A DNA stretch of 64,000 nucleotides from Bacteroidota bacterium. GTDB taxonomy: Bacteria > Bacteroidota > Bacteroidia > Bacteroidales > UBA12481. The notes beneath the pieces were generated by a model. The model was given only the letters and a program-made list of their open reading frames with translations, was not told the origin of the DNA and searched no databases. This document shows positions 3,299 to 51,766 of the stretch, in pieces; position 1 is the stretch's first letter; every line of letters starts with the position of its first letter. The stretch lies in the NCBI GenBank assembly GCA_018669475.1, contig JABHCC010000032.1:6058-70057 (forward strand), written 5' to 3'. Made by a program: the position numbers and the translations under genes.

Positions 3299-4861
3299 TT
3301 AGTTGCTTCCAGTAGGACTCTTCTCTACCAGATAGCTTCGGCCATTTGCAAAGTCCCAGAGTGTTTTTCTTTTTAGGTCATTAACAGCAAGCTGATAATT
3401 GATATATGAATTTAGATAATCCAACTGCACAGATTCGAGGCGTTCTCTCTCCATCGATAGCTCTTGATTGGATATATCTCCATTTTCAAAGCGCATTTTG
3501 CTGATATTATAGCTTTTACGGGCAAGGTCCATGTTCTTTTTATGAATTAGGATCAACTCCTGGCTTTCTGCGACGGTTCGGATCACCTCTTTCACCTCAC
3601 GAACAATGGTGGTTTTAAGGTCTTCATGACTAAGCTCTCTCTCTTCAAGTCGGAGTTTAGCCTCTTGTGTCTTTTCCCTTCCCCTTCCCCAATCATAGAT
3701 GGGATAGGTGAGGGTAAGTGCGATACCTCTATTTGCTGGCCGATTTGTCAGATCGTTTAAGGATGATCCCATAAGATCAACGGTTGAACCCGAACCGTTA
3801 GTACTGATACCGGTTAGATCATAATAGGCAGAAAGGTACACCTTAAACTCTCTAACCCTCTTGGCACGGTCAAGCTCAATACTGCTCAGGTTAATATTCA
3901 TATTACTTTCATAAATTTCCGGACGGTTCAGCAGTGACTCCTCAATGGCTTTCTGTTCATCGATGGCAAACACATCGTATTTCATATCCGTAAAGATCTG
4001 GATGCTTTGTGTTGCCGACAATCCAATCAGCTGTTTGAATGCTTCTTCGATGTTTCTAGATTGATTCCGACTTTTAAGCAGGTTGGCCTGATCACTGGCT
4101 ACAGAAACTTCCGCACTAAACATATCAGCGTCGGCAATGCGACCACTTTCAGCTTTTAACTGGGCAACGCGGTATGATTCCCTGGAGTTTTCAAGCTTCT
4201 CTTTTGCAATGTTTACCTCACTGGCAGCTTTAACGAGCAAGTAAAATCCCTTTGAAACCTCATACACAATATCCATTTGGTTCCTGGTAAAATAGTGAAC
4301 AGCTTTTGTGTAAAGGAATTCAGCCTCCATAAGATTCTCTTTCAATTTATTCCGTGTGAAAAGAGGCTGGTTGAAGCTCAACCAGTAGCGACTGTAAAAT
4401 TGCCTTGTCTTAAGTTCATCTCCTCCAGAAGCCAAGATCGTGCTCAAGTCTTCCTGATACATATTGGCTGAAAGCGCAATGTCTCCTCCAGTTGGTAGAA
4501 CATAAGTCAATTTTGCAGAACCCCCAACCTGAAATGATCCATAGGAGTTGTATACAGGGAGTCCGTCTGCACGATCAATTTGATTAACATACTCACTCCA
4601 GAGAGGAGTGTTCAGGCTAATATCGAATCTTGGTTTAAAAGTGGCTTTATAATAACCATAGTAATGGTTCATTGCATCCCTTTGTTTAATATGAGACTGA
4701 ATGGAATAACTCTCATCCAACGCAATGTTGATGGCATCTTGATACCTGACCAGAAGTGTGTCCTGTGCGCTTATTGACTTTATCCCCAACTGGGACAGTA
4801 GAAGACCGATTATGATATAGATGTATTTTGAAATCATTATTCTTTCAAACTCAATTGTCAT
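3299..4861 (-). CDS. TolC-family outer membrane efflux protein
   Basis: Signal peptide, two coiled-coil/beta repeat halves and an OEP-like sequence character. It is the first gene of the efflux operon. The true start is probably the internal Met, MISKYIY. Confidence 0.7.
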   Translation of the reverse strand: MTIEFERIMISKYIYIIIGLLLSQLGIKSISAQDTLLVRYQDAINIALDESYSIQSHIKQRDAMNHYYGYYKATFKPRFDISLNTPLWSEYVNQIDRADGLPVYNSYGSFQVGGSAKLTYVLPTGGDIALSANMYQEDLSTILASGGDELKTRQFYSRYWLSFNQPLFTRNKLKENLMEAEFLYTKAVHYFTRNQMDIVYEVSKGFYLLVKAASEVNIAKEKLENSRESYRVAQLKAESGRIADADMFSAEVSVASDQANLLKSRNQSRNIEEAFKQLIGLSATQSIQIFTDMKYDVFAIDEQKAIEESLLNRPEIYESNMNINLSSIELDRAKRVREFKVYLSAYYDLTGISTNGSGSTVDLMGSSLNDLTNRPANRGIALTLTYPIYDWGRGREKTQEAKLRLEERELSHEDLKTTIVREVKEVIRTVAESQELILIHKKNMDLARKSYNISKMRFENGDISNQELSMERERLESVQLDYLNSYINYQLAVNDLKRKTLWDFANGRSYLVEKSPTGSN

Positions 4862-5037: not shown

Positions 5038-6291
5038 ATGAGAAAAAAAAACAATTTAAAACATCAATCTGATTACAGTCAGACTATTTCAGAACTGAAC
5101 AAGTCATTTTCATTGATTACTGATCTTGTGCAGTTAAGAAACAATTTTGTTACCCGGATCAAAGAAATTTCGAATATCGAGTCCTTAGAAGTTTTTCTTC
5201 TTGATCCCGATTATAATCGCTTTAAACCTATCGCCGAACAGGATCATTCTTCGCAGCCCAACAGGGATATATACTTTAACCCCAACGACAAATTGATATT
5301 CTGGCTTAAGGTGAATAAAGTTTTGTTGAATATCTTGGATGACCCTGCAATATTTAACTTTTTTACCGAAAGGGAAAAAGATGTATTGCTTAAACTTGAT
5401 GCTGAAATCGTGTATCCTTTCGTGCTTATGAACCAGTTGAAAGGGTTTGTATTATTGGGAAAGAAAGAATCGGGAGCATATTCCCAGAATGAATTGGAGA
5501 TATTGACAATCCTTTTTGAGCAGGCGAGTTTTGCTTTTGAGAATGCAATGTTATATATGCAACAAAGGGAGCGTTCCGGCAAAATGTACAGGGCAGATCG
5601 ATTGGCCACTTTGGGAGAACTGGCGGCGGGGGCTGCGCATGAAATAAGGAATCCTCTCACCTCTATTCGAAGCACTATCCAATATCTATCGAACAAGATT
5701 GAAGATCCTGAGGACAGAGAATTAGCTCTCGGTCTCATCTCTGAGGTTGACCGGATCAATGGTATCATTCAGGATATGTTGTCTTTTTCCAAACCTGAAG
5801 ACTTGAAGATTGAGGAAACGGATTTTAAGGATATAATCAATCAAATTATGAGATTGGTCGAAAGTTCTGCAAAGAGCAAGAAGGTTGAAATTGTGATGAA
5901 TTATTTGTCGGTGTATGAAACCATCAATATAGATAATAACTTGATGAAGCAGGCCCTGATCAATATCTTGATGAATGCTTTACAGGCAATTGATGCACAG
6001 GAAGGGCAGATTCAAATAGAAGTAAGAGATATTGCTTCAGAAAATCCTCAATCTGACGAGGATTCAATGTTTCTTCTCGAAATACGGGACAATGGAAAAG
6101 GGATTCCGAAGAACCTACTTGAGAAGATTTTCGATCCATTTTATACAACGAAACAGGAAGGAACCGGATTGGGTTTATCCATTACATACAGTATTATTCA
6201 CAGACATGGGGGAGAAATTAAATTTCAGAGTGAAATTGAAAAAGGGACACTTGTGAAAATCAAGCTTCCCCGAAAGGCAATAAAGCAGTAA
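5038..6291 (+). CDS. Cytoplasmic sensor histidine kinase (GAF-like sensor, HisKA and HATPase domains)
   Basis: H-box AAHEIRNPLTSI, and an N/G1/G2 ATPase region (DNGKGIP, GTGLGL). No TM segments. Confidence 0.85.
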   Translation: MRKKNNLKHQSDYSQTISELNKSFSLITDLVQLRNNFVTRIKEISNIESLEVFLLDPDYNRFKPIAEQDHSSQPNRDIYFNPNDKLIFWLKVNKVLLNILDDPAIFNFFTEREKDVLLKLDAEIVYPFVLMNQLKGFVLLGKKESGAYSQNELEILTILFEQASFAFENAMLYMQQRERSGKMYRADRLATLGELAAGAAHEIRNPLTSIRSTIQYLSNKIEDPEDRELALGLISEVDRINGIIQDMLSFSKPEDLKIEETDFKDIINQIMRLVESSAKSKKVEIVMNYLSVYETINIDNNLMKQALINILMNALQAIDAQEGQIQIEVRDIASENPQSDEDSMFLLEIRDNGKGIPKNLLEKIFDPFYTTKQEGTGLGLSITYSIIHRHGGEIKFQSEIEKGTLVKIKLPRKAIKQ

Positions 6292-6294
6292 ACA

Positions 6295-7668
6295 ATGGAG
6301 CAGAAGATTCTAATAGTTGATGATGAGGCAAGGATCAGGAAAATATTCGCCAAAATCCTTGAGGATGAAGGGTATGTTGTATCTACTGTAGATAATGCTG
6401 AAAGGGCCATAGCTCAGCTAGACAAAATCAAGCCTTTTATCATTCTGATGGATCAGAATATGCCGGGGATGAATGGCATTGAAGCTATGAAACATATCCA
6501 TGTCAAATATCCGGATATAGCAATCATCATTATTACTGCATACGGAGAAATCAGTCTGGCGGTAAAAGCTGTGAAGGAAGGAGCTTACGACTATATAGAA
6601 AAGCCCGTTGACAATGATAAGCTGGTATTATTGATCAACCGGGCCAAAGAACATTTCAGGGTAAGGCATGAACTCAAAACCCTTAAGCAGAAGATTTCGG
6701 ATAAAAACTACTTGAGCCGAATTGTAGCTGAGTCGGAGAAAATGAATCAGGTCATTGAACAGGTTAAGTCTGTAGGCGACACCTATGCTACAGTATTGAT
6801 TCAAGGTGAAAGTGGCACCGGGAAAGATCTGATTGCGAATGCCATTCACCATTATGGGGAGAGGCAGGGCAAACCATTTATTTCCGTTAATTGCGGAGCG
6901 ATTCCAATCACTCTGATAGAGAGCGAACTGTTTGGTCATACAAAAGGAGCCTTTACTGATGCCCGGGAAGCGAAGCAGGGTAAGTTTGTTCAGGCCCACA
7001 ATGGCTCACTATTTTTAGATGAAATTGCCGAGTTGCCCCTGGATGCCCAGGTGAAGCTATTGAGGGTACTTGAAGAAAAAAAGATATTTCCATTGGGGGG
7101 AGGAAGAGCCATCCCAATAGATGTCAGGATTATTGCCGCCACCAATAATAACCTTGAGAATAAAGTGCAAAAGGGGGAGTTTCGATTAGATCTTTTGTAC
7201 AGGCTCAATATTTTTACTATTAACATTCCTCCCCTTAGGGAAAGAAGAGAGGATATTCCAATTCTGGTTGATGTCTTTTTAAATCAATATAATGAACAGT
7301 TTGGCTTAGCGGTAAATAACATTTCCAAAGAAGCCCTTGAAAACATTCTGGGATATAGCTGGCCAGGTAATATCCGGGACCTTCAAAATGCTTTACAAAG
7401 CGCCATGATCCTTTCTAAAAAGGGGACTATCACCATGGAGCATCTTCCGCTTAGAATAAAAGGGTACGATCAGTCAATAAGGCCAGAACTGAGCCTGGTG
7501 GAAGGTTTGGAGAGGAATATGAAGCAGGTGAGCACAAAGGCTGAAAAAGAGATTATCCTTGAAGCATTAAAGGAGTGCCGTTTTAATCGTACCAGGACTG
7601 CTGATTTTCTAAAGATTAGCCGCAAGACCCTGTTCAACAAGATGAAACAATACAATATTGATCTCTAA
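6295..7668 (+). CDS. Sigma-54-dependent response regulator (NtrC family)
   Basis: Receiver domain ILIVDDE...D, AAA+ domain with GESGTGKD and GAFTDA (GAFTGA variant), ESELFGH motif and a C-terminal Fis-type HTH. It starts 4 bp after the kinase gene. Confidence 0.9.
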   Translation: MEQKILIVDDEARIRKIFAKILEDEGYVVSTVDNAERAIAQLDKIKPFIILMDQNMPGMNGIEAMKHIHVKYPDIAIIIITAYGEISLAVKAVKEGAYDYIEKPVDNDKLVLLINRAKEHFRVRHELKTLKQKISDKNYLSRIVAESEKMNQVIEQVKSVGDTYATVLIQGESGTGKDLIANAIHHYGERQGKPFISVNCGAIPITLIESELFGHTKGAFTDAREAKQGKFVQAHNGSLFLDEIAELPLDAQVKLLRVLEEKKIFPLGGGRAIPIDVRIIAATNNNLENKVQKGEFRLDLLYRLNIFTINIPPLRERREDIPILVDVFLNQYNEQFGLAVNNISKEALENILGYSWPGNIRDLQNALQSAMILSKKGTITMEHLPLRIKGYDQSIRPELSLVEGLERNMKQVSTKAEKEIILEALKECRFNRTRTADFLKISRKTLFNKMKQYNIDL

Positions 7669-7942
7669 AAACGACGGGGTAAACATTGAAAAGCCAAAAA
7701 TGCACGAATCAACACAGCCCCGGAAATTGTTTAGGGTATCATACATAAAAAAGGTTTAACACTAATTTCGTTCCTAACTAGTCTATTAGGTGATTAACCA
7801 CTGATTTGCACTTTTGTCTCATTCCATATTGCTTTTTATATTCAAGCGTAATTATGAATGATTGAAAGTAATCCATGAAACTACCGTTAGTAGGAATTTG
7901 CAAGTGTTCATCACTTTCAGTTATACCATGATTCTTTATTAG

Positions 7943-8160
7943 AAATTCCTTCTTCGTAGGTTGAGGAAAAAATAATACATTTGCACTCCCACACCCACAC
8001 TTCTTAGCACACTCACACCCACACCTATTTCGGGATGTAGCTCAGCCAGACACTCACTTGTCAAACATCTCTCTTACTGTTACTTAGAACTGTATTCTTA
8101 AAACATTTCTGACTGTCCTAAAACATTTGCAAATATTTTACAAATTTAAATTAAGCACCT
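7943..8160 (+). repeat. Direct repeat copy 1: a tRNA-Pro promoter-like segment, the first about 19 nt of the tRNA-Pro gene and a ~110-nt downstream arm shared with copy 2
   Basis: aattccttcttcgtaggttgagg-aaaaaataatacatttgcactccc-(CA-rich)-cgggatgtagctcagccag. The core cgggatgtagctcagccag is identical to 13460-13478. Confidence 0.8.
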
Positions 8161-8220
8161 ATCTTTTTGATTAACGAGAATATATGCTAAAACATATAAA
8201 TCAATGTTTCAGCTTGTAGC

Positions 8221-8270
8221 TATATCTAATTGCATATAATTTAGTATATTTATCCATTATTATATCTAAA
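8221..8270 (+). promoter_or_regulatory. Two 20-bp direct repeats (tatatctaaNtNcatataat) immediately upstream of the hipB-like gene; candidate operator/promoter
   Basis: 8221-8240 and 8251-8270 differ at 2 positions. AT-rich with TAnnTTTG-like motifs. Confidence 0.35.
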
Positions 8271-8278
8271 TACATATA

Positions 8279-8488
8279 ATGAAGCAATTAGCAGAGTTTG
8301 TCAAAGAACGGAGAAAAGAAGTCAATCTAACTCAGGAAGAATTCGCTGAACGTGCAGGAGTTGCATTAACAGTAGTACGTAAAATCGAACAAGGTAAAAC
8401 GAATCTGAATATGGATAAGGTTAACTTAGTACTTCAAATGTTTGGGCATGAATTAGCTCCTGTTAACAGAAAAAAAATGAATGAATGA
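8279..8488 (+). CDS. XRE-family HTH DNA-binding protein (HipB-like)
   Basis: 69 aa. LTQEEFAERAGVALTVVRKIEQGK is a classic Cro/C1 HTH. It overlaps the next gene by 4 bp. Confidence 0.7.
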   Translation: MKQLAEFVKERRKEVNLTQEEFAERAGVALTVVRKIEQGKTNLNMDKVNLVLQMFGHELAPVNRKKMNE

Positions 8489-8820
8489 GACAGGGAAAGG
8501 TGTTTTATAAAGATCATTTGGCTGGTATCCTAACTGAAACGAATGAGGGTGAGTATGAATTTCAGTATGATCATCAGTACATAAAAAATCATCGAGATGA
8601 TTTCATCACGTTTACAATGCCGGTCACAGACAAACCATACACCGAGAAACGACTCTTTCCATTTTTTGAAGGATTGATCCCAGAAGGATGGTTGTTAGAT
8701 ATAGCTTCTGAAAACTGGAAAATCAATAAAAATGATCGCATGGGATTACTTCTGGCTTGTTGTCAGAATTGCATCGGTGCAGTAAGTGTGGAACCAATAC
8801 CGGAAGAAGATGGAACATAG
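8485..8820 (+). CDS. HipS-like protein (HipA N-terminal subdomain as a stand-alone ORF)
   Basis: 111 aa, resembling the HipA N-terminal/coupling domain. It overlaps the downstream kinase ORF by 8 bp (atggaacatag). Confidence 0.6.
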   Translation: MRQGKVFYKDHLAGILTETNEGEYEFQYDHQYIKNHRDDFITFTMPVTDKPYTEKRLFPFFEGLIPEGWLLDIASENWKINKNDRMGLLLACCQNCIGAVSVEPIPEEDGT

Positions 8821-9751
8821 ATGTTTATATTGTTACGAAACAGTTGAAAAAAAATTCGACTTTCACGAGAAGTGTTCAATGGAGTTTTTTGGAACACCAA
8901 CACCCCCTAAAATAAAGTATTCGCTTGATCAAATGGATGAGCTCGCGAAAAATGTAGTAGAGCGAAGTGTTTCTGTTCCAGGTGTTCAGCCAAAACTATC
9001 GATGTCCATAATCAAAGAAACAAAGGAAAATTCGGATACGCGATTGACTGTGGTTGGAGCGTTAGGTGGGCACTATATTTTTAAACCACCTTCTGACAAA
9101 TTTCTCGAAATGCCGGAGAATGAACATGTAACAATGCGAATAGCTGAATCTTTTGGAATTCGAGTTGTGCCATCATCCTTGATTCGATTATTATCTGGAG
9201 AACTGTCTTATATAACAAAACGAGTTGACCGGAATGAAACTGGAGCAAAGATACACATGATCGATATGTTTCAAATCACAGAAGCATTTGATAAGTATAA
9301 AAGCTCCATGGAGAAAGTTGGAAAAGCAATAGGCAGCCACTCTAGTAACACTTTGCTTGATAAAACCTTTTTCTTTGATTTAGCTGTGTTCTCATTTCTA
9401 ACCGGAAATAATGATATGCATCTAAAGAATCTCTCTATGATCGAAAATACCTCTGGTTGGGTGTTGTCTCCTGCTTATGATCTATTAAATGTTGCAATAG
9501 TGTTCCCAGAAGATACTGAAGAACTAGCATTGACATTAGTTGGAAAGAAAAAGAAGTTGAAGCGAGAACATTTTGAAAAATTGGGAGAAGGAATGGAATT
9601 GACTCCTAAACAGATCAAAGGGACCTTCAATCGAATGATAAAGAATAAATCAAGAGCATTCAAATTATTAGATCGATCGCTCCTGTCAAAGGATATGAAA
9701 ACTGCATACAAAGAAGTACTTGAAGGGAGGTATCGACAATTAGGACTATAA
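8811..9751 (+). CDS. HipT/HipA-like serine/threonine kinase toxin (HipA C-terminal domain)
   Basis: Catalytic-loop-like NNDMHLKNLSM and SPAYDLLN motifs of HipA_C. The start is taken at MEHRCLY, which overlaps the hipS-like stop. A Cys/His cluster lies at the N-terminus. Confidence 0.65.
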
Positions 9752-9803
9752 GAATAACGGCTTGCATAAAGGAGAATGCAAGTGACCTTCCCCCCTGATA
9801 ATT

Positions 9804-10010
9804 GGAAATTCTTCCTCGTAAGTTGTGAGAAAAAGTAATACATTTGCACTCCCCCACACTCACACTTCTTAACACACCCACACCCACACCCACACCTTCT
9901 CCGGGATGTAGCTCAGCCAGATGCTCATTCATTATACATCTCTCTTTCTGTCACTTACGACTATTCTCTTAAAACATTTGTAAAAATTTTACAAATTGAA
10001 ATAAAGCATG
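9804..10010 (+). repeat. Direct repeat copy 2, same architecture as copy 1 with a longer CACACCC-type tract
   Basis: ggaaattcttcctcgtaagttgtgag-aaaaagtaatacatttgcactccc-(cacacccacacccacacc)-ccgggatgtagctcagccag, plus a downstream arm about 80% identical to copy 1. Confidence 0.8.
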
Positions 10011-13403: not shown

Positions 13404-13478
13404 TAATTCTTCCTTCGCAGGTTGATGAAAAAATAATACATTTGCACTCCCAACACAACTCGGGATGTAGCTCAGCCA
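13404..13478 (+). repeat. Direct repeat copy 3 (the native tRNA-Pro promoter and 5' end); lacks the CA-rich tract
   Basis: taattcttccttcgcaggttgatg-aaaaaataatacatttgcactccc-aacacaact-cgggatgtagctcagccag. Contains a TAcaTTTG -7-like element about 16 nt upstream of the tRNA 5' end. Confidence 0.75.
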
Positions 13479-13534
13479 GGTTAGAGTACCCGTCTGGGGG
13501 GCGGGGGGCCGGAAGTTCAAATCTTCTCATCCCG
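13460..13534 (+). tRNA. tRNA-Pro: tRNA-Pro (anticodon GGG)
   Basis: Hand-folded cloverleaf: acceptor CGGGATG/CATCCCG, D-arm GCTC-AGCCAGGTTA-GAGT, anticodon stem CCCGT/GCGGG with loop CTGGGGG (U33, anticodon GGG), 5-nt variable loop, T-arm GGAAG-TTCAAAT-CTTCT, discriminator A. CCA is not encoded. Confidence 0.8.
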
Positions 13535-13547
13535 ACGGCTGAAAATG

Positions 13548-49183: not shown

Positions 49184-50278
49184 CTAATTAGCTAAGCTTC
49201 TTCGTTTTCGTCTGGTAATCACCCAAATAACAACAGGAGCACCAAACAAAGCGGTAACCGAATTAATGGGCAAAACCTGGTTAGATCCAGGCATCTGAGA
49301 TATGATATCACAACATAACATCAAAATACTTCCAATGCAAATAGTTGCTGGAATCAGAATCCTGTGATCAGAGCTTTTGAGCAGGTTTCGTGCCAGATGC
49401 GGAACCGCTACGCCAATAAAGGCAATTGGTCCGGTAAAGGCTGTTAATCCACCAGCAATCACACTTGTCAGAAGAATGATCCACAATCGCGACCTTTTAA
49501 CATCAACACCAATTCCCCTGGCATAATTCTCACCTAACAATAATGCATTCAAAGGCTTTTGCATGAAGAGTGTGAAAAGAATGCCAGTGACAACTATAGG
49601 AGCAAAAATTACAAATTGATTCCAGGTTACTCCTGAAATACTACCAAAAGTCCAAACGAGAAAACTATGAACGGTGTCAGGATCGCTAAAGTATTCCAAT
49701 ACACTTACAATGGCACCAGTAATACTGCCAAACATGATTCCAATTATCAGAATGGAAACTGAATCATTTACTCTGACCGAGACAGCAATGACAAGCATCA
49801 TAACCAGCACCGATCCAAGCATTGAGGCACCTACAAGACCTAAACTTCCGACGAAAGGCATTCCTATTATACTCAGGCCTCCAATACCAGCAGCCATCAC
49901 GAATATAGCAACTCCCAGACTGGCTCCTGAGCTGATCCCCAGAACAAAGGGACCTGCTAAGGGATTCCTGAAAAGGGTTTGCATCATTAATCCGGCTAAT
50001 GATAATCCTGATCCGACCAATATTGCAGTAAGAGCTTTCGGCAGCCTGAAAACCAGCAGGATGTCGCGCAAGTACTCTTCTCCATCCGGCCCTACACTTC
50101 GGATCAGTTTTGCTGGTGAGATCAATACACTTCCCAGCAGCAGATCAAGACAAAATAAAAGCAGAACTCCTGCGATTAGTAAGGTAAAAAACAAGCGTAT
50201 TTTTCTTCTTTGATTCAAACTACTGCAATTTTTTATAATACACCAACTTATGATTTGGCAATACTTCAGGATGGGCAA
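49184..50278 (-). CDS. FecCD/BtuC-family ABC permease
   Basis: About 9 TM helices with a BtuC-like pattern ([34 protein letters not shown]). Confidence 0.85.
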   Translation of the reverse strand: [364 protein letters not shown]

Positions 50279-51386
50279 TAAAAATCAGATCTGCAAGTAC
50301 CACATGTGGTTGCATTATGGCTCCTTCCCAATAATCATTGGCCAATCCCCTCAGCATGCGATTAGACAAGCTGTAGACCTCCTTTTCTTTAAAAGCCCTG
50401 AACATTGAATAGCGAGGATCTTCTATAGTCAAGTCAGATAATTTTCGGGCTGATACATTCAACCAAAAAGGAGCATCATTGAATTCATGCACAACTGCTT
50501 CAAAACCCAATGGAAGGCTTTCCGATTCTTTCTTCTCATACCAGGGATAGAAAAAACCGGCATCCTTTAGGAATTCAGACATATAATTCCCTCCTCCCGG
50601 CATGAACCAGGTCCCTTTGAAACTATTACCAATCAACACTTTCGGATGCTCAATCTGATCTGAAATCTGACCTTTCAATTCGAGATAATCTTCTTCAATG
50701 GATTGAAAAATTGAATCAGCCACAGATTCCATATTCAACAATAATCCAAATACTTTGATCCACTCAGCCCTTCCCAAAGGTGTAGGCTCCAACCATTCCA
50801 TCACATATACTAAATCAATTCCTGTTTGTCGGATTCTGGCATCTTTTGCAAGTTGGCCGGCAAATCCTGTTTGGATGATAATATCAGGTTGCTGGTTCAC
50901 CAAACTTTCATAATTATACTCCATATCTGAGCCAATCCGAATCAGATCTCCTTTTTTGTATTTATCATACAATGCACTGTGATACAACCTATCCGGAGTT
51001 GTACATCCGATAACTCGTTCAGCTTCACCAAAAGCGTCTAAATAAGCTACATGAGTGGTGGAAAAAATGGCCCATCTGGCAGGATTGGCACGTAAAATTT
51101 TCTCTTTATCAAGATGGTCCGGAATCGCAACATCTGGCTTAAGCACCTGATAAACGGCGAAGGTGTCGCGTTGATTCCATGGGTCAAGAATACTAAGCTC
51201 TGTATATCCCTCTTCCTCCCGGATGACGAAACCACGGGCATATTTCTCTGATCCGGAAATACTCCGGCCCGTATTCATGGACTGCTTATGATCATTACGA
51301 TCAACTTTAGATGACTTAGATGGAGAACATCCCGACCAAGTCAGTAAAAAAATAATCCAAAACAGACCTGCAAATAGCTTTTTCAT
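50220..51386 (-). CDS. Periplasmic substrate-binding lipoprotein (BtuF/cluster-A-like) of the ABC importer
   Basis: Lipoprotein signal LLTWSGCS. Class III PBP-like. It is the first gene of the operon and sits directly downstream of the riboswitch. Confidence 0.7.
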   Translation of the reverse strand: MKKLFAGLFWIIFLLTWSGCSPSKSSKVDRNDHKQSMNTGRSISGSEKYARGFVIREEEGYTELSILDPWNQRDTFAVYQVLKPDVAIPDHLDKEKILRANPARWAIFSTTHVAYLDAFGEAERVIGCTTPDRLYHSALYDKYKKGDLIRIGSDMEYNYESLVNQQPDIIIQTGFAGQLAKDARIRQTGIDLVYVMEWLEPTPLGRAEWIKVFGLLLNMESVADSIFQSIEEDYLELKGQISDQIEHPKVLIGNSFKGTWFMPGGGNYMSEFLKDAGFFYPWYEKKESESLPLGFEAVVHEFNDAPFWLNVSARKLSDLTIEDPRYSMFRAFKEKEVYSLSNRMLRGLANDYWEGAIMQPHVVLADLIFIAHPEVLPNHKLVYYKKLQ

Positions 51387-51419: not shown

Positions 51420-51665
51420 GGGATCGTTTAATAACGACTCCATGGGTTTCGCCCCGAAAACCATGTATCAATATATTCGCGGCAGGTCTTCTGGCTTTCC
51501 CGATCGCATCCTCCTTCCCGCCCCGATCAACGATGGCAGTGGTCAGACTGGACACGACACTATCCCTAAAAATTGGGATCGGAATTACAGCTGCGGGGGC
51601 AGCTCCGGACTTTCAAAACAATTGAGCACCGGATTCCCTATTAAGCATTGCACCGACAAGAAAAC
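51420..51665 (-). ncRNA. Cobalamin (B12) riboswitch
   Basis: Minus-strand sequence shows AATAGGGAA..GGTGCTCAA..TCCGGAGCTGCCCCCGCAGCTGTAA and a B12-box-like GACCACTGCC, matching conserved cobalamin riboswitch elements. It is immediately upstream of the btuF-like gene. Confidence 0.75.
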
Positions 51666-51766
51666 AAAGATAAATAAAACAAGAAGACAAAAAACTGTTT
51701 AAAATAATTCTAAATAAGCAAAATTCATTGTTTCTTTGCAAATCAAAACCCAGAGATAGATAAAAC

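What the first reader, a model, noticed from the sequence alone, without database searches (positions are those of the whole stretch)
8279..9751. Tripartite HipB-HipS-HipT-like toxin-antitoxin with a naturally split HipA
The usual HipA fold is encoded here as two overlapping ORFs. The first is a 111-aa HipA-N-like protein. The second is a roughly 313-aa kinase-domain protein whose ATG overlaps the first stop by 8 bp. An XRE HTH gene precedes them.

This is the hipBST arrangement described in E. coli O127, in which the small HipS acts as antitoxin; it is not a frameshifted hipA. The module sits between island-type direct repeats. Two 20-bp direct repeats (8221-8240 and 8251-8270) lie immediately upstream and are candidate operators.
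Basis: partly seen in the sequence, partly recalled or inferred. Interest (0 to 1): 0.55.

Follow-up and report, generated by a model that had tools for sequence, protein, structure and literature searches.

The report
Legionella-type HipBST kinase toxin-antitoxin cassette
This is an intact three-gene HipB-HipS-HipT toxin-antitoxin module (a naturally split HipA kinase) in an uncultured marine Bacteroidetes genome; it belongs to a subfamily already reported as common in that phylum, so it is a well-supported but fairly ordinary find with a few new details.

Summary
Window 8279-9751 encodes hipB (69 aa, HTH), hipS (111 aa, HipA N-terminal domain) and hipT (313 aa, HipA kinase core) as overlapping genes.

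The split is not a frameshift. All 79 species-level homologous loci with upstream sequence keep three separate ORFs, 67 of them with the same 11-nt hipS/hipT overlap. All three genes are under purifying selection (dN/dS 0.04-0.24).

Corrections:
- The hipS/hipT overlap is 11 nt, not 8.
- The operators are three palindromes (TATAT-N8-ATATA) at 8181, 8221 and 8261, exactly 40 nt apart. This layout is conserved in most homologous loci.
- The nearest characterised relative is Legionella HipBST, not E. coli O127. Lin et al. already reported that Legionella-type systems are widespread in Bacteroidota.

New details:
- HipT's N-terminal mini-domain carries an invariant CxxC...HxxC pattern (a likely zinc site) that both solved HipT structures lack.
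- HipS keeps the E. coli-type inhibitory tryptophan, which Legionella HipS lacks.
- The flanking repeats are copies of the tRNA-Pro promoter plus the first 20 nt of the tRNA.
- Similar repeats of local sequence bracket the cassette in about 15% of other species. The mechanism is unexplained.

Verdict: new member of a known kind; modest interest.

The parts
7938..8157 (+). Upstream flanking direct repeat (DR1). It is a copy of the tRNA-Pro promoter region, a CA-rich insert, the first 20 nt of tRNA-Pro (8031-8050) and about 105 nt of 'X' sequence shared only with DR2.
8181..8198 (.). Operator O3 (distal): palindrome TATATGCTAAAACATATA, at -98 from the hipB ATG.
   Evidence: conserved position in 58+ of 76 loci
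8221..8238 (.). Operator O2: palindrome TATATCTAATTGCATATA, at -58.
8245..8252 (+). Bacteroidetes-type -7 promoter box (TAnnTTTG class; here TATATTTA), lying between O2 and O1.
   Evidence: TAnnTTT[GA] at -34 in 60 of 76 loci. The consensus itself comes from established knowledge of Bacteroidetes promoters; function is inferred.
8261..8278 (.). Operator O1 (proximal): palindrome TATATCTAAATACATATA. It abuts the hipB start codon, at -18.
   Evidence: at -18 in 71 of 76 loci
8279..8488 (+). hipB: a 69-aa Cro/C1-type HTH protein, the predicted autorepressor.
   Evidence: 84% mean column identity across 78 loci; dN/dS 0.06-0.24
8485..8820 (+). hipS: a 111-aa homologue of HipA N-subdomain 1, the predicted antitoxin. 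It carries Glu67 and Trp69 in the invariant motif EGLIPEGW.
8810..9751 (+). hipT: a 313-aa HipA-core Ser/Thr kinase, the predicted toxin. Features: N-terminal CxxC-x10-HxxC mini-domain (C5, C8, H19, C22); P-loop S55-V-P57-G-V-Q-P-K; catalytic GNNDMHLKN (D202); Mg-binding motif SPAYD (D224).
9760..9783 (+). Weak hairpin (CTTGCAT...ATGCAAG) just after the hipT stop. A possible terminator, but not statistically distinctive.
   Evidence: -11.5 kcal/mol, z = -1.3
9801..10008 (+). Downstream flanking direct repeat (DR2), with the same composition as DR1. The tRNA 5' fragment is at 9902-9921.
13405..13536 (+). Intact tRNA-Pro(GGG) gene (13461-13536) with its promoter region. This is the sequence from which the promoter and 5' parts of DR1 and DR2 derive.

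Best explanation
This is a functional, horizontally mobile tripartite type II toxin-antitoxin operon of the HipBST family, in the Legionella (HipBST_Lp) subclade.

Proposed mechanism:
- HipT (313 aa) is a HipA-fold Ser/Thr kinase. When free, it phosphorylates an essential cellular protein and arrests growth. The target is probably a translation factor such as an aminoacyl-tRNA synthetase, but its identity is unknown.
- HipS (111 aa) is the detached N-subdomain 1 of HipA. It binds HipT and holds the Gly-rich (P-) loop in the ejected, ATP-incompetent conformation. Here it probably does so with the Trp69 wedge, which is equivalent to Trp65 of E. coli HipS.
- HipB (69 aa) is a dimeric HTH repressor. 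It binds three palindromic operators (TATAT-N8-ATATA) spaced exactly 40 nt apart. These bracket the -7 promoter box and cover the short leader up to the start codon, so the operon represses itself. HipT may act as co-repressor.
- The 4-nt and 11-nt gene overlaps couple translation and fix the stoichiometry.
- Ser55 in the P-loop is the likely autophosphorylation site.

Shown here: the gene anatomy, family membership by sequence and predicted fold, intact catalytic motifs, conservation of the split, purifying selection, the conserved operator and promoter layout, and non-syntenic distribution.

Inferred by homology only: toxicity, the antitoxin role of HipS, repression by HipB, zinc binding and the target.
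For: Domains and relatives:
- Domain HMM hits.
- The best solved relatives are HipT_Lp and HipS_Lp, followed by HipT and HipS of E. coli O127. Canonical HipA is far weaker.
- AlphaFold model: pLDDT 94.3, pTM 0.93. TM-score 0.91 to 7vkc (HipT_Lp), 0.82 to 7ab3-5 (HipT_Ec) and 0.65-0.71 to HipA.
- The catalytic motifs align with experimentally required residues of HipT_Ec and HipT_Lp (PMC9325769, PMC10627512).

Conservation:
- The split is kept in 79 of 79 loci, with an identical 11-nt overlap in 67.
- dN/dS is 0.04-0.24 for all three genes.
- The HipS motif EGLIPEGW is invariant in 80 sequences.
- C5, C8, H19 and C22 are four of only seven invariant columns among 76 representatives of clusters at 50% identity.

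Regulation:
- Three operators lie at -98, -58 and -18, with 40-nt spacing in 119 operator pairs. A -7 box lies at -34 in 60 of 76 loci.
- HipB_Lp binds its own promoter and forms a HipB-HipT-DNA complex (bioRxiv 10.1101/2022.11.26.518041, section 29).

Mobility:
- Flanks are almost never syntenic between species.
- Synonymous divergence is only 0.1-0.5 between different orders or phyla.
- Split relatives also occur on Bacteroidota plasmids.
Against: - No experiment exists for this protein or for any Bacteroidota member.
- The target of the closest characterised kinase (HipT_Lp) is unknown, and it is not TrpS or GltX (Lin et al., section 33). The target assignment here is therefore a guess.
- HipS_Lp does not use the Trp wedge, so the neutralisation details could follow either model.
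- Zinc binding rests on a ligand pattern and a confident model only. Both solved HipTs fold the mini-domain without these ligands.
- Weak PADLOC hits to the candidate defence system PDC-M03 leave an anti-phage role open.
Confidence: 0.85

Rival explanations
1. A decayed canonical hipA gene, split by a recent frameshift or nonsense mutation (a pseudogene).
For: Full-length fused relatives do exist. They have Couple_hipA, a linker, CxxC..HxxC and HipA_C in 427-494 aa, and are 36-44% identical to this HipT.
Against: - The same split occurs in 79 of 79 species-level loci, with the same 11-nt overlap in 67.
- ATG start codons are conserved for hipS and hipT.
- dN/dS is 0.04-0.24 in both halves.
- The sequence is identical in all contigs of this species.
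- The closest relatives in the PDB are genuinely split systems.
Confidence: 0.01
2. The operon works like classical HipBA. HipB is the real antitoxin, and HipS is only a structural lid needed for kinase folding or activity.
For: HipB_Lp binds HipT_Lp directly in yeast two-hybrid assays (Lin et al., section 29). HipS corresponds to a domain that is an integral part of HipA.
Against: - In all four tested HipBST systems (E. coli O127, H. influenzae, T. auensis, L. pneumophila) HipS neutralises HipT and HipB alone does not (PMC6581861; PMC9325769; Lin et al.).
- HipB here is only 69 aa and has no C-terminal extension.
- The inhibitory Trp of HipS is invariant.
Confidence: 0.06
3. The primary biological role is anti-phage abortive infection or defence, rather than addiction or persistence. 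The same molecular parts would be triggered by infection.
For: - Weak similarity of HipT and HipS to the PADLOC candidate defence system PDC-M03 A/B (6e-10 and 5.5e-06).
- Neighbouring cassettes in other genomes are other TA or defence-like pairs: HEPN-MNT, RelE-like, and in one case a site next to a CRISPR array.
- Gerdes et al. 2021 propose phage defence for some Hip kinases.
Against: - The PADLOC hits are distant and partial.
- No phage-sensing component is present.
- No relatives are found in phage genomes, apart from one weak hit.
- This rival concerns physiological role and is compatible with the proposed mechanism.
Confidence: 0.15
4. A programmed +1 frameshift in the conserved 11-nt overlap produces a full-length HipA-like fusion as the active product.
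For: hipT is in the +1 frame relative to hipS. The overlap length is strikingly conserved.
Against: - There is no conserved slippery motif. The overlap is ATG-NNN-NAT-ARA-TG, and its sequence varies.
- 9 loci have 8 nt, one has a 78-nt gap, one has a 1-nt gap and one has 5 nt.
- A fusion would have a much shorter linker (about 13 aa) than natural fused relatives (about 30 aa).
- Termination-reinitiation coupling explains the overlap more simply.
Confidence: 0.02

Closest known systems
HipBST of Legionella pneumophila (Lpg2368-2370; PDB 7VKB, 7VKC, 7WCF, 8EZR, 8EZS)
   Same: - Same three-gene order and similar sizes (72/102/~312 aa against 69/111/313 aa).
- Best sequence match: HipT 8e-38 as a single sequence and 8e-93 with a family profile; HipS 1e-15.
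- Best fold match, TM-score 0.91 over the full length.
- A single P-loop serine (Lp S54, here S55), followed two residues later by a non-phosphorylatable residue (Q in Lp, P here).
- Lin et al. already reported homologues of this subclade as widespread in Fibrobacterota, Chlorobiota and Bacteroidota.
   Different: - Only about 33-38% identical.
- HipS here keeps the Trp (W69) that HipS_Lp lacks (I65/M66).
- HipT here has the CxxC...HxxC ligands, where HipT_Lp has C-P-I-T...Y-S-Q-R-G.
- The hipS/hipT overlap is 11 nt here and 4 nt in Legionella.
HipBST of E. coli O127:H6 (PDB 7AB3-5)
   Same: - Tripartite logic, with HipS corresponding to HipA N-subdomain 1.
- The PEGW motif with Glu and Trp is present (Ec E63/W65, here E67/W69).
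- The catalytic GNNDMHL[KR]N and YD motifs are conserved.
- An N-terminal mini-domain is present.
   Different: - More distant: 1.5e-16, about 22% identity in the structural alignment, TM-score 0.82.
- HipB_Ec is 107 aa with an N-terminal extension.
- HipT_Ec has a dual S-I-S P-loop, whereas this protein has S-V-P.
- HipT_Ec lacks the Cys/His ligands (C-R-I-L...Y-S-T-Q-G).
- The target TrpS is established for Ec but is not inferable here.
Canonical HipBA (E. coli K-12 and Shewanella HipA)
   Same: - The same kinase fold and motifs.
- HipB HTH autorepressor.
- Operators are palindromes with an 8-nt spacer. E. coli's TATCC-N8-GGATA is quoted from established knowledge.
   Different: - HipA is a single ~440-aa protein and HipB is the antitoxin.
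- Similarity is weak: 3e-3 for the kinase and 0.05 for HipS as single sequences; TM-score 0.65-0.71.
Fused HipA-like relatives of the same clade (for example P0151, P0167, P0188, P0194; possibly the 'HipBA_Bu' type of Lin et al.)
   Same: - 36-44% identical to this HipT over its whole length.
- They carry the same CxxC...HxxC motif (13 of 17).
- They have Couple_hipA and HipA_C domains.
   Different: - They are one polypeptide of 427-494 aa, with a linker of about 30 aa where this operon has a stop and restart.
- In an unbootstrapped, poorly resolved NJ tree, fused and split forms are interleaved.
- Whether they equal HipBA_Bu was not tested.
PADLOC candidate defence system PDC-M03 (A/B)
   Same: Distant HipA_C-like (6e-10) and HipA_N-like (5.5e-06) similarity.
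   Different: The matches are partial and low-scoring. This is not a member.

Membership tests
HipBST tripartite TA family | Three co-directional, tightly linked genes in the order hipB-hipS-hipT | tested here: met
   ORFs at 8279-8488, 8485-8820 and 8810-9751, overlapping by 4 and 11 nt. The same order occurs in 79 of 79 loci.
HipBST tripartite TA family | HipS: a ~100-aa protein homologous to HipA N-subdomain 1 | tested here: met
   PF13657 at 8.2e-26 and TIGR03071 at 2.3e-28. Matches HipS_Lp at 1e-15, HI_0666 at 8e-12 and HipS_Ec at 1.9e-11.
HipBST tripartite TA family | HipT: a HipA core kinase that lacks N-subdomain 1 and has an intact Gly-rich loop, catalytic motif and Mg-binding motif | tested here: met
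   PF07804 at 2.5e-42. Alignments to 7vkb and 7ab4 show SVSVPGVQPK, GNNDMHLKN and SPAYD. G58, Q60, K62, D202, H204, K206, N207 and D224 are invariant or nearly invariant in the family alignment. TM-score is 0.91 and 0.82 to the solved HipTs.
HipBST tripartite TA family | HipB: a small HTH protein encoded first | tested here: met
   HTH_3 at 1.1e-11. TIGR03070 scores 74 bits against a cut-off of 71.65.
HipBST tripartite TA family | The split is the native state in orthologues, not a lesion | tested here: met
HipBST tripartite TA family | HipT is toxic and HipS, not HipB, neutralises it | not testable with these tools
   Shown for the E. coli O127, H. influenzae, T. auensis and L. pneumophila systems (PMC6581861, PMC9325769, bioRxiv 10.1101/2022.11.26.518041). 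Inferred here.
HipBST tripartite TA family | P-loop Ser/Thr available for autophosphorylation | tested here: met
   S55 aligns with Lp S54 and Ec S57. P57 aligns with Lp Q56 and Ec S59, which places this protein in the (S/T)-Psi-P class of Baerentsen et al. (PMC10627512, section 10). Phosphorylation itself was not tested.
HipBST_Lp subclade (Lin et al.) | HipT and HipS are closer to the Legionella proteins than to the E. coli O127 proteins | tested here: met
   8e-38 against 1.5e-16 for HipT and 1e-15 against 1.9e-11 for HipS as single sequences; 8e-93 against 3e-42 with a profile; TM-score 0.91 against 0.82. The NJ tree places the window sequence with Lp-type representatives, with O127 on a long branch (no bootstrap).
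HipBST_Ec subclade (TrpS-targeting) | S-Psi-S dual phospho-site P-loop, long HipB and TrpS as target | tested here: not met
   The P-loop is S-V-P and HipB is 69 aa. The target is not testable.
Canonical HipBA | A single ~440-aa HipA containing N-subdomain 1, with HipB as antitoxin | tested here: not met
   There are two ORFs in different frames. An in-frame stop upstream of hipT is present in all loci.
Integrative element at a tRNA gene (for the flanking repeats) | Direct repeats derived from the tRNA gene, plus a recombinase | tested here: inconclusive
   The repeats do contain the tRNA-Pro promoter and the first 20 nt of the tRNA. However, no recombinase lies between them, the 5' rather than the 3' end is duplicated, the intact tRNA is 3.4 kb away, and no empty site was found.

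The most novel reading that the evidence does not exclude
In Bacteroidota the ~1.7-2.1-kb hipBST unit behaves as a recombinase-less mobile cassette that inserts with long duplications (40-270 bp) of local host sequence. Examples are the tRNA-Pro promoter plus 5' end in this window and the 3' end of an ABC-F gene in L024.

These cassettes sometimes form arrays with other TA cassettes, separated by copies of the same repeat.

This would point either to Campbell-type single-crossover integration of circular [cassette + host fragment] molecules, or to an undescribed integron-like or trans-acting integration system. TA addiction would then protect the repeats from deletion by recombination.
Probability: 0.2. 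Interest if true: 0.6.

Novelty: new member of a known kind. Interest (0 to 1): 0.3.

Why it matters
The module itself adds one more well-supported example to a family whose spread in Bacteroidota was already published. The secondary observations give the field three testable handles.

(1) The HipT N-terminal mini-domain is described as being 'of unknown significance'. In most family members it carries an invariant Cys2-His-Cys pattern that both crystallised model proteins have lost. The model systems may therefore be atypical, and a zinc- or redox-dependent layer of control could have been missed.

(2) Bacteroidota HipS combines a Legionella-type kinase partner with the E. coli-type Trp wedge. 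This makes it useful for working out which neutralisation mechanism is ancestral.

(3) The very regular triple operator (40-nt period), wrapped around a Bacteroidetes -7 promoter box, is a clean system for studying HipB/HipT-dependent autoregulation in a phylum with non-canonical promoters.

The recurrent local direct repeats could also reveal how small TA cassettes move without their own recombinase.

Tried and rejected
- **PDB search with the N-terminus.** The first 64 aa of HipT gave no hit as a single sequence. The comparison needed a family profile.
- **tRNA targeting as a general rule.** Rejected. Only 11 tRNAs lie within about 5 kb of the module in 80 loci, close to my rough estimate of genomic tRNA density (one per ~80 kb; not computed with a tool). 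They are of mixed identity.
- **The repeat's 'X' part as a dispersed MITE- or REP-like family.** A metagenome scan for ACATCTCTCTTWCTGTYACTTA found only three short contigs, all from this same locus.
- **Empty-site search.** All 24 contigs that carry the identical upstream response-regulator protein also carry hipBST at the same place wherever the contig extends that far.
- **Conserved cassette termini or terminal inverted repeats.** None was found across 10 tightly bracketed loci.
- **Programmed frameshift.** There is no conserved slippery motif in the overlap.
- **Terminator after hipT.** The hairpin is not distinctive (z = -1.3).
- **Phage carriage.** Essentially none.
- **Direction of split versus fusion.** The NJ tree is star-like and has no bootstrap support, so no direction can be claimed.
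- **Sigma-70 promoter scan.** Not used, because Bacteroidetes promoters differ from that consensus.
- **attC (integron) structure.** Could not be tested; no model was available.
Full report
**Observation**

The window carries three co-directional ORFs at 8279-8488 (69 aa), 8485-8820 (111 aa) and 8786/8810-9751 (321 aa from a GTG, 313 aa from the ATG). hipB and hipS overlap by 4 nt (ATGA).

The ATG start is the right one. Homologues begin at the aligned position with ATG in 74 of 79 loci, and the conserved N-terminal motif starts at residue 5.

The exact protein is already in public databases as 'HipA domain-containing protein [Bacteroidetes bacterium]'. The window matches contig JABGPH010000001.1 of MAG GCA_018645035.1, and identical loci occur in several other marine metagenome assemblies.

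**Family assignment**

- ORF1 matches HTH_3 (1.1e-11). It passes the curated cut-off of TIGR03070 'couple_hipB / Y4mF-family antitoxin' (74 bits against 71.65).
- ORF2 matches PF13657 Couple_hipA (8.2e-26) and TIGR03071 (2.3e-28) over its whole length.
- ORF3 matches PF07804 HipA_C (2.5e-42).

Against solved structures, the kinase is closest to Legionella pneumophila HipT (7vkb/8ezr, 8e-38), then E. coli O127 HipT (7ab3-5, about 1e-16). Canonical HipA is far behind (6e-07 for Shewanella, 3e-03 for E. coli K-12). The small protein is closest to HipS_Lp (1e-15), H. influenzae HI_0666 (8e-12) and HipS_Ec (1.9e-11), and only at 0.05 to the HipA N-terminus.

A profile built from 76 diverse relatives gives 8e-93 to HipT_Lp and 3e-42 to HipT_Ec. 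An AlphaFold2 model (pLDDT 94.3, pTM 0.93) superposes on HipT_Lp with TM-score 0.91 over the full length. The TM-score is 0.82 on HipT_Ec and 0.65-0.71 on HipA.

**Is the split real?**

I scanned one genome per GTDB species and kept the 80 best loci, at 66-92% HipT identity. They are mostly Bacteroidota, from Flavobacteriales, Cytophagales, Bacteroidales, Chitinophagales and Saprospirales, with a few MAGs labelled Chlorobiota, Balneolaceae and others.

All 79 loci that extend upstream encode hipB, hipS and hipT in that order. In every one, hipS ends at its own stop, and hipT has an in-frame stop no more than 84 nt upstream of its start. The hipS/hipT overlap is 11 nt in 67 loci and 8 nt in 9. 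Three others differ, with a 78-nt gap, a 1-nt gap and a 5-nt overlap. None is fused.

Pairwise Nei-Gojobori estimates against seven loci give dN/dS of 0.04-0.24 for each of the three genes. The pseudogene reading is therefore refuted.

Fused relatives do exist further away. Among the 150 best representatives of clusters at 50% identity, 17 are 400 aa or longer. The six I checked have Couple_hipA (about residues 1-103), a linker of roughly 30 aa, then the region that aligns with this HipT from residue 3-4 onward. An NJ tree interleaves fused and split forms, but it is star-like and has no bootstrap support, so I draw no conclusion about direction.

**Catalytic and regulatory residues (from alignments)**

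- The Gly-rich loop is S53-V-S55-V-P57-G-V-Q-P-K62.
- S55 aligns with the mapped autophosphorylation sites, Ser54 of HipT_Lp and Ser57 of HipT_Ec.
- P57 aligns with Q56 of Lp and S59 of Ec. This places the protein in the (S/T)-Psi-P class that Baerentsen et al. describe (PMC9325769; PMC10627512, section 10).
- GNNDMHLKN (D202, H204, K206, N207) and SPAYD (D224) match motifs whose equivalents are required for toxicity in HipT_Ec and HipT_Lp (PMC9325769). They are invariant or nearly invariant in the family alignment.
- HipS carries E67-G-W69 in the motif EGLIPEGW, which is invariant in all 80 sequences. It aligns with E63-G-W65 of HipS_Ec.
- Trp65 is the wedge that blocks the P-loop in E. coli (PMC10627512). 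HipS_Lp lacks it, having I65/M66 instead (Lin et al., section 31).

This Bacteroidota system therefore pairs a Legionella-type kinase with an E. coli-type HipS wedge.

**N-terminal mini-domain**

[quoted passage not shown] Here the region contains C5-x2-C8-x10-H19-x2-C22.

- These four residues are invariant in the 80 close homologues.
- They are four of only seven invariant columns among the 76 diverse representatives.
- The pattern C..C-x(6-16)-[HC]..C is present in 86 of 95 short representatives and 13 of 17 long ones.
- The AlphaFold model is confident here (pLDDT 93-96). It shows a short beta-bridge followed by a helix that starts at residue 20, a knuckle-plus-helix arrangement typical of treble-clef zinc sites. 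The fold-class assignment is my inference; I could not inspect coordinates.
- Both crystallised HipTs lack the ligands. Lp has C-P-I-T...Y-S-Q-R-G and O127 has C-R-I-L...Y-S-T-Q-G.
- None of the HipBST papers I read mentions zinc in this context, and a full-text search for 'HipT' plus 'zinc' found nothing relevant.

This is a modest, apparently undescribed variant feature. Metal binding is inferred, not shown.

**Promoter and operators**

There are in fact three palindromes, TATAT-N8-ATATA, at 8181, 8221 and 8261, exactly 40 nt apart. They are the only three matches in 64 kb, against 0.14 expected.

In 76 homologous loci, operators sit at -98, -58 and -18 from the hipB ATG. 59 loci have exactly three operators. 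The spacing is 40 nt in 119 operator pairs. The consensus is TTATAT-N-TAAA-N2-CATATAA.

A Bacteroidetes-type -7 box (TAnnTTT[G/A]) lies at -34, between O2 and O1, in 60 of 76 loci. The proximal operator ends at the base before the start codon. The leader must therefore be very short and consist of O1.

The 8-nt spacer echoes the E. coli hipBA operators (TATCC-N8-GGATA; established knowledge). HipB_Lp binds its own promoter and forms a HipB-HipT-DNA complex (Lin et al., section 29). Autorepression by HipB is thus strongly suggested, but it is inferred.

**Flanking repeats**

The module is bracketed by DR1 (about 7938-8157) and DR2 (about 9801-10008). Each repeat consists of:

- a copy of about 55 nt of the promoter region of the tRNA-Pro(GGG) gene, which sits intact at 13461-13536;
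- a CA-rich insert;
- the first 20 nt of the tRNA (exact, apart from the last base);
- about 105 nt ('X') that is unrelated to the tRNA.

There is no recombinase between the repeats. The genes between DR2 and the tRNA are a hypothetical protein and a sulfatase. X was found nowhere else in the metagenome collection. No empty site exists among 24 contigs of this species. 'Island-type repeats' is therefore a fair description, but the origin of the repeats is unresolved.

**The same pattern elsewhere**

In 10 of 68 other species loci with enough flank, direct repeats of 43-269 nt (81-97% identical) bracket the cassette tightly. They lie no more than 350 nt upstream of hipB and no more than 450 nt downstream of hipT.

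The repeats are unrelated between genomes and derive from local sequence. In L024 the repeat is the last 269 nt of an ABC-F ATPase gene. The intact gene abuts the hipT side, and a displaced pseudo-copy lies on the hipB side.

In several loci a third copy of the repeat delimits a neighbouring small cassette. These neighbours include a HEPN + nucleotidyltransferase pair (L021), a RelE/ParE-like pair (L053), a second SIS-type hipBST (L082) and a GNAT gene. In L043 the cassette follows a CRISPR array and another TA pair, with a further CRISPR repeat after hipT.

Cassette ends are not conserved. Flanking genes are almost never shared between species. Synonymous divergence is far from saturation between different orders, and is only 0.1-0.18 against a MAG labelled 'Delongbacteria'. 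Split relatives also sit on Bacteroidota plasmids.

Together these results show a horizontally mobile cassette. How it inserts remains unexplained. Campbell-type homologous integration of a circular [cassette + host fragment] molecule, integration catalysed in trans, and an integron-like array are all open. I had no genome-wide control for the frequency of such repeats.

**Mechanism proposed**

- Free HipT phosphorylates an essential protein and stops growth.
- HipS binds it and keeps the P-loop ejected, probably through W69.
- HipB represses the operon through the three phased operators, possibly with HipT as co-repressor.
- The overlapping stops and starts couple translation.

The target is unknown. 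TrpS is established for the E. coli subclade, but it was excluded, together with GltX, for the closest characterised relative (Lin et al., section 33). I give about 0.5 to 'an aminoacyl-tRNA synthetase or other translation factor' and do not name one.

**Comparison and novelty**

Every testable defining feature of HipBST is met. The system belongs to the Legionella-type subclade. Lin et al. (bioRxiv 10.1101/2022.11.26.518041; mBio 2023) already reported that subclade as widely distributed in the FCB superphylum. This is therefore a new member of a known kind.

The mini-domain Cys/His pattern, the Trp-bearing HipS within the Lp-type clade, the conserved triple operator and the recurrent local direct repeats are new details. 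They raise the interest slightly but do not change the category.

Noticed in passing
window 7938-8157, 9801-10008 and 13405-13536: The two repeats that flank hipBST each contain a copy of the tRNA-Pro(GGG) promoter and the first 20 nt of the tRNA. The intact gene lies 3.4 kb downstream. It is the 5' end that is duplicated, not the usual 3' end, and no recombinase is present.
   Followed up: partly
L008, L009, L012, L021, L024, L028, L043, L045, L053, L070 (coordinates): In 10 of 68 other species the hipBST cassette is tightly bracketed by direct repeats of 43-269 nt of local, genome-specific sequence. In L024 the repeat is the 3' end of an ABC-F gene (3949-4216 and 6048-6316). The mechanism is unknown.
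   Followed up: partly
L021 6169-6878; L053 7825-8363; L082 6131-7664; L013 2495-4166: Neighbouring cassettes delimited by further copies of the same repeats encode other small accessory modules. These are a HEPN + nucleotidyltransferase pair, a RelE/ParE-like pair, a second hipBST with an S-I-S P-loop, and a GNAT acetyltransferase. The arrangement looks like an array, but attC-type structure was not tested.
   Followed up: partly
L043 584-3486 and 6048-6085: In a Chlorobiota-labelled MAG, hipBST and an adjacent HigB/HigA-like pair lie directly after a CRISPR array of about 40 units (37-nt repeat GATTCAACTTCAACTTCCACTAAAACAAGGATTGAAAC). One more copy of the repeat follows hipT.
   Followed up: partly
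window 8810-8935 (HipT residues 1-41): An invariant CxxC-x10-HxxC pattern lies in the HipT N-terminal mini-domain. It is present in 86 of 95 short and 13 of 17 fused family representatives, but absent from both solved HipT structures. It is a likely zinc site.
   Followed up: yes
L007 660-2129: A MAG labelled 'Candidatus Delongbacteria' carries a hipBST that is 92-95% identical in protein, with synonymous divergence of only 0.10-0.18. This indicates either very recent cross-phylum transfer or a binning error.
   Followed up: no
window 51464-51672 (- strand): Cobalamin riboswitch (RF00174, 85.5 bits), upstream of the minus-strand genes that end near 50220-51386.
   Followed up: no
window 5038-7668: A histidine kinase and a sigma-54-dependent response regulator (NtrC type) lie immediately upstream of the cassette. 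This context is fixed in all contigs of this species.
   Followed up: no
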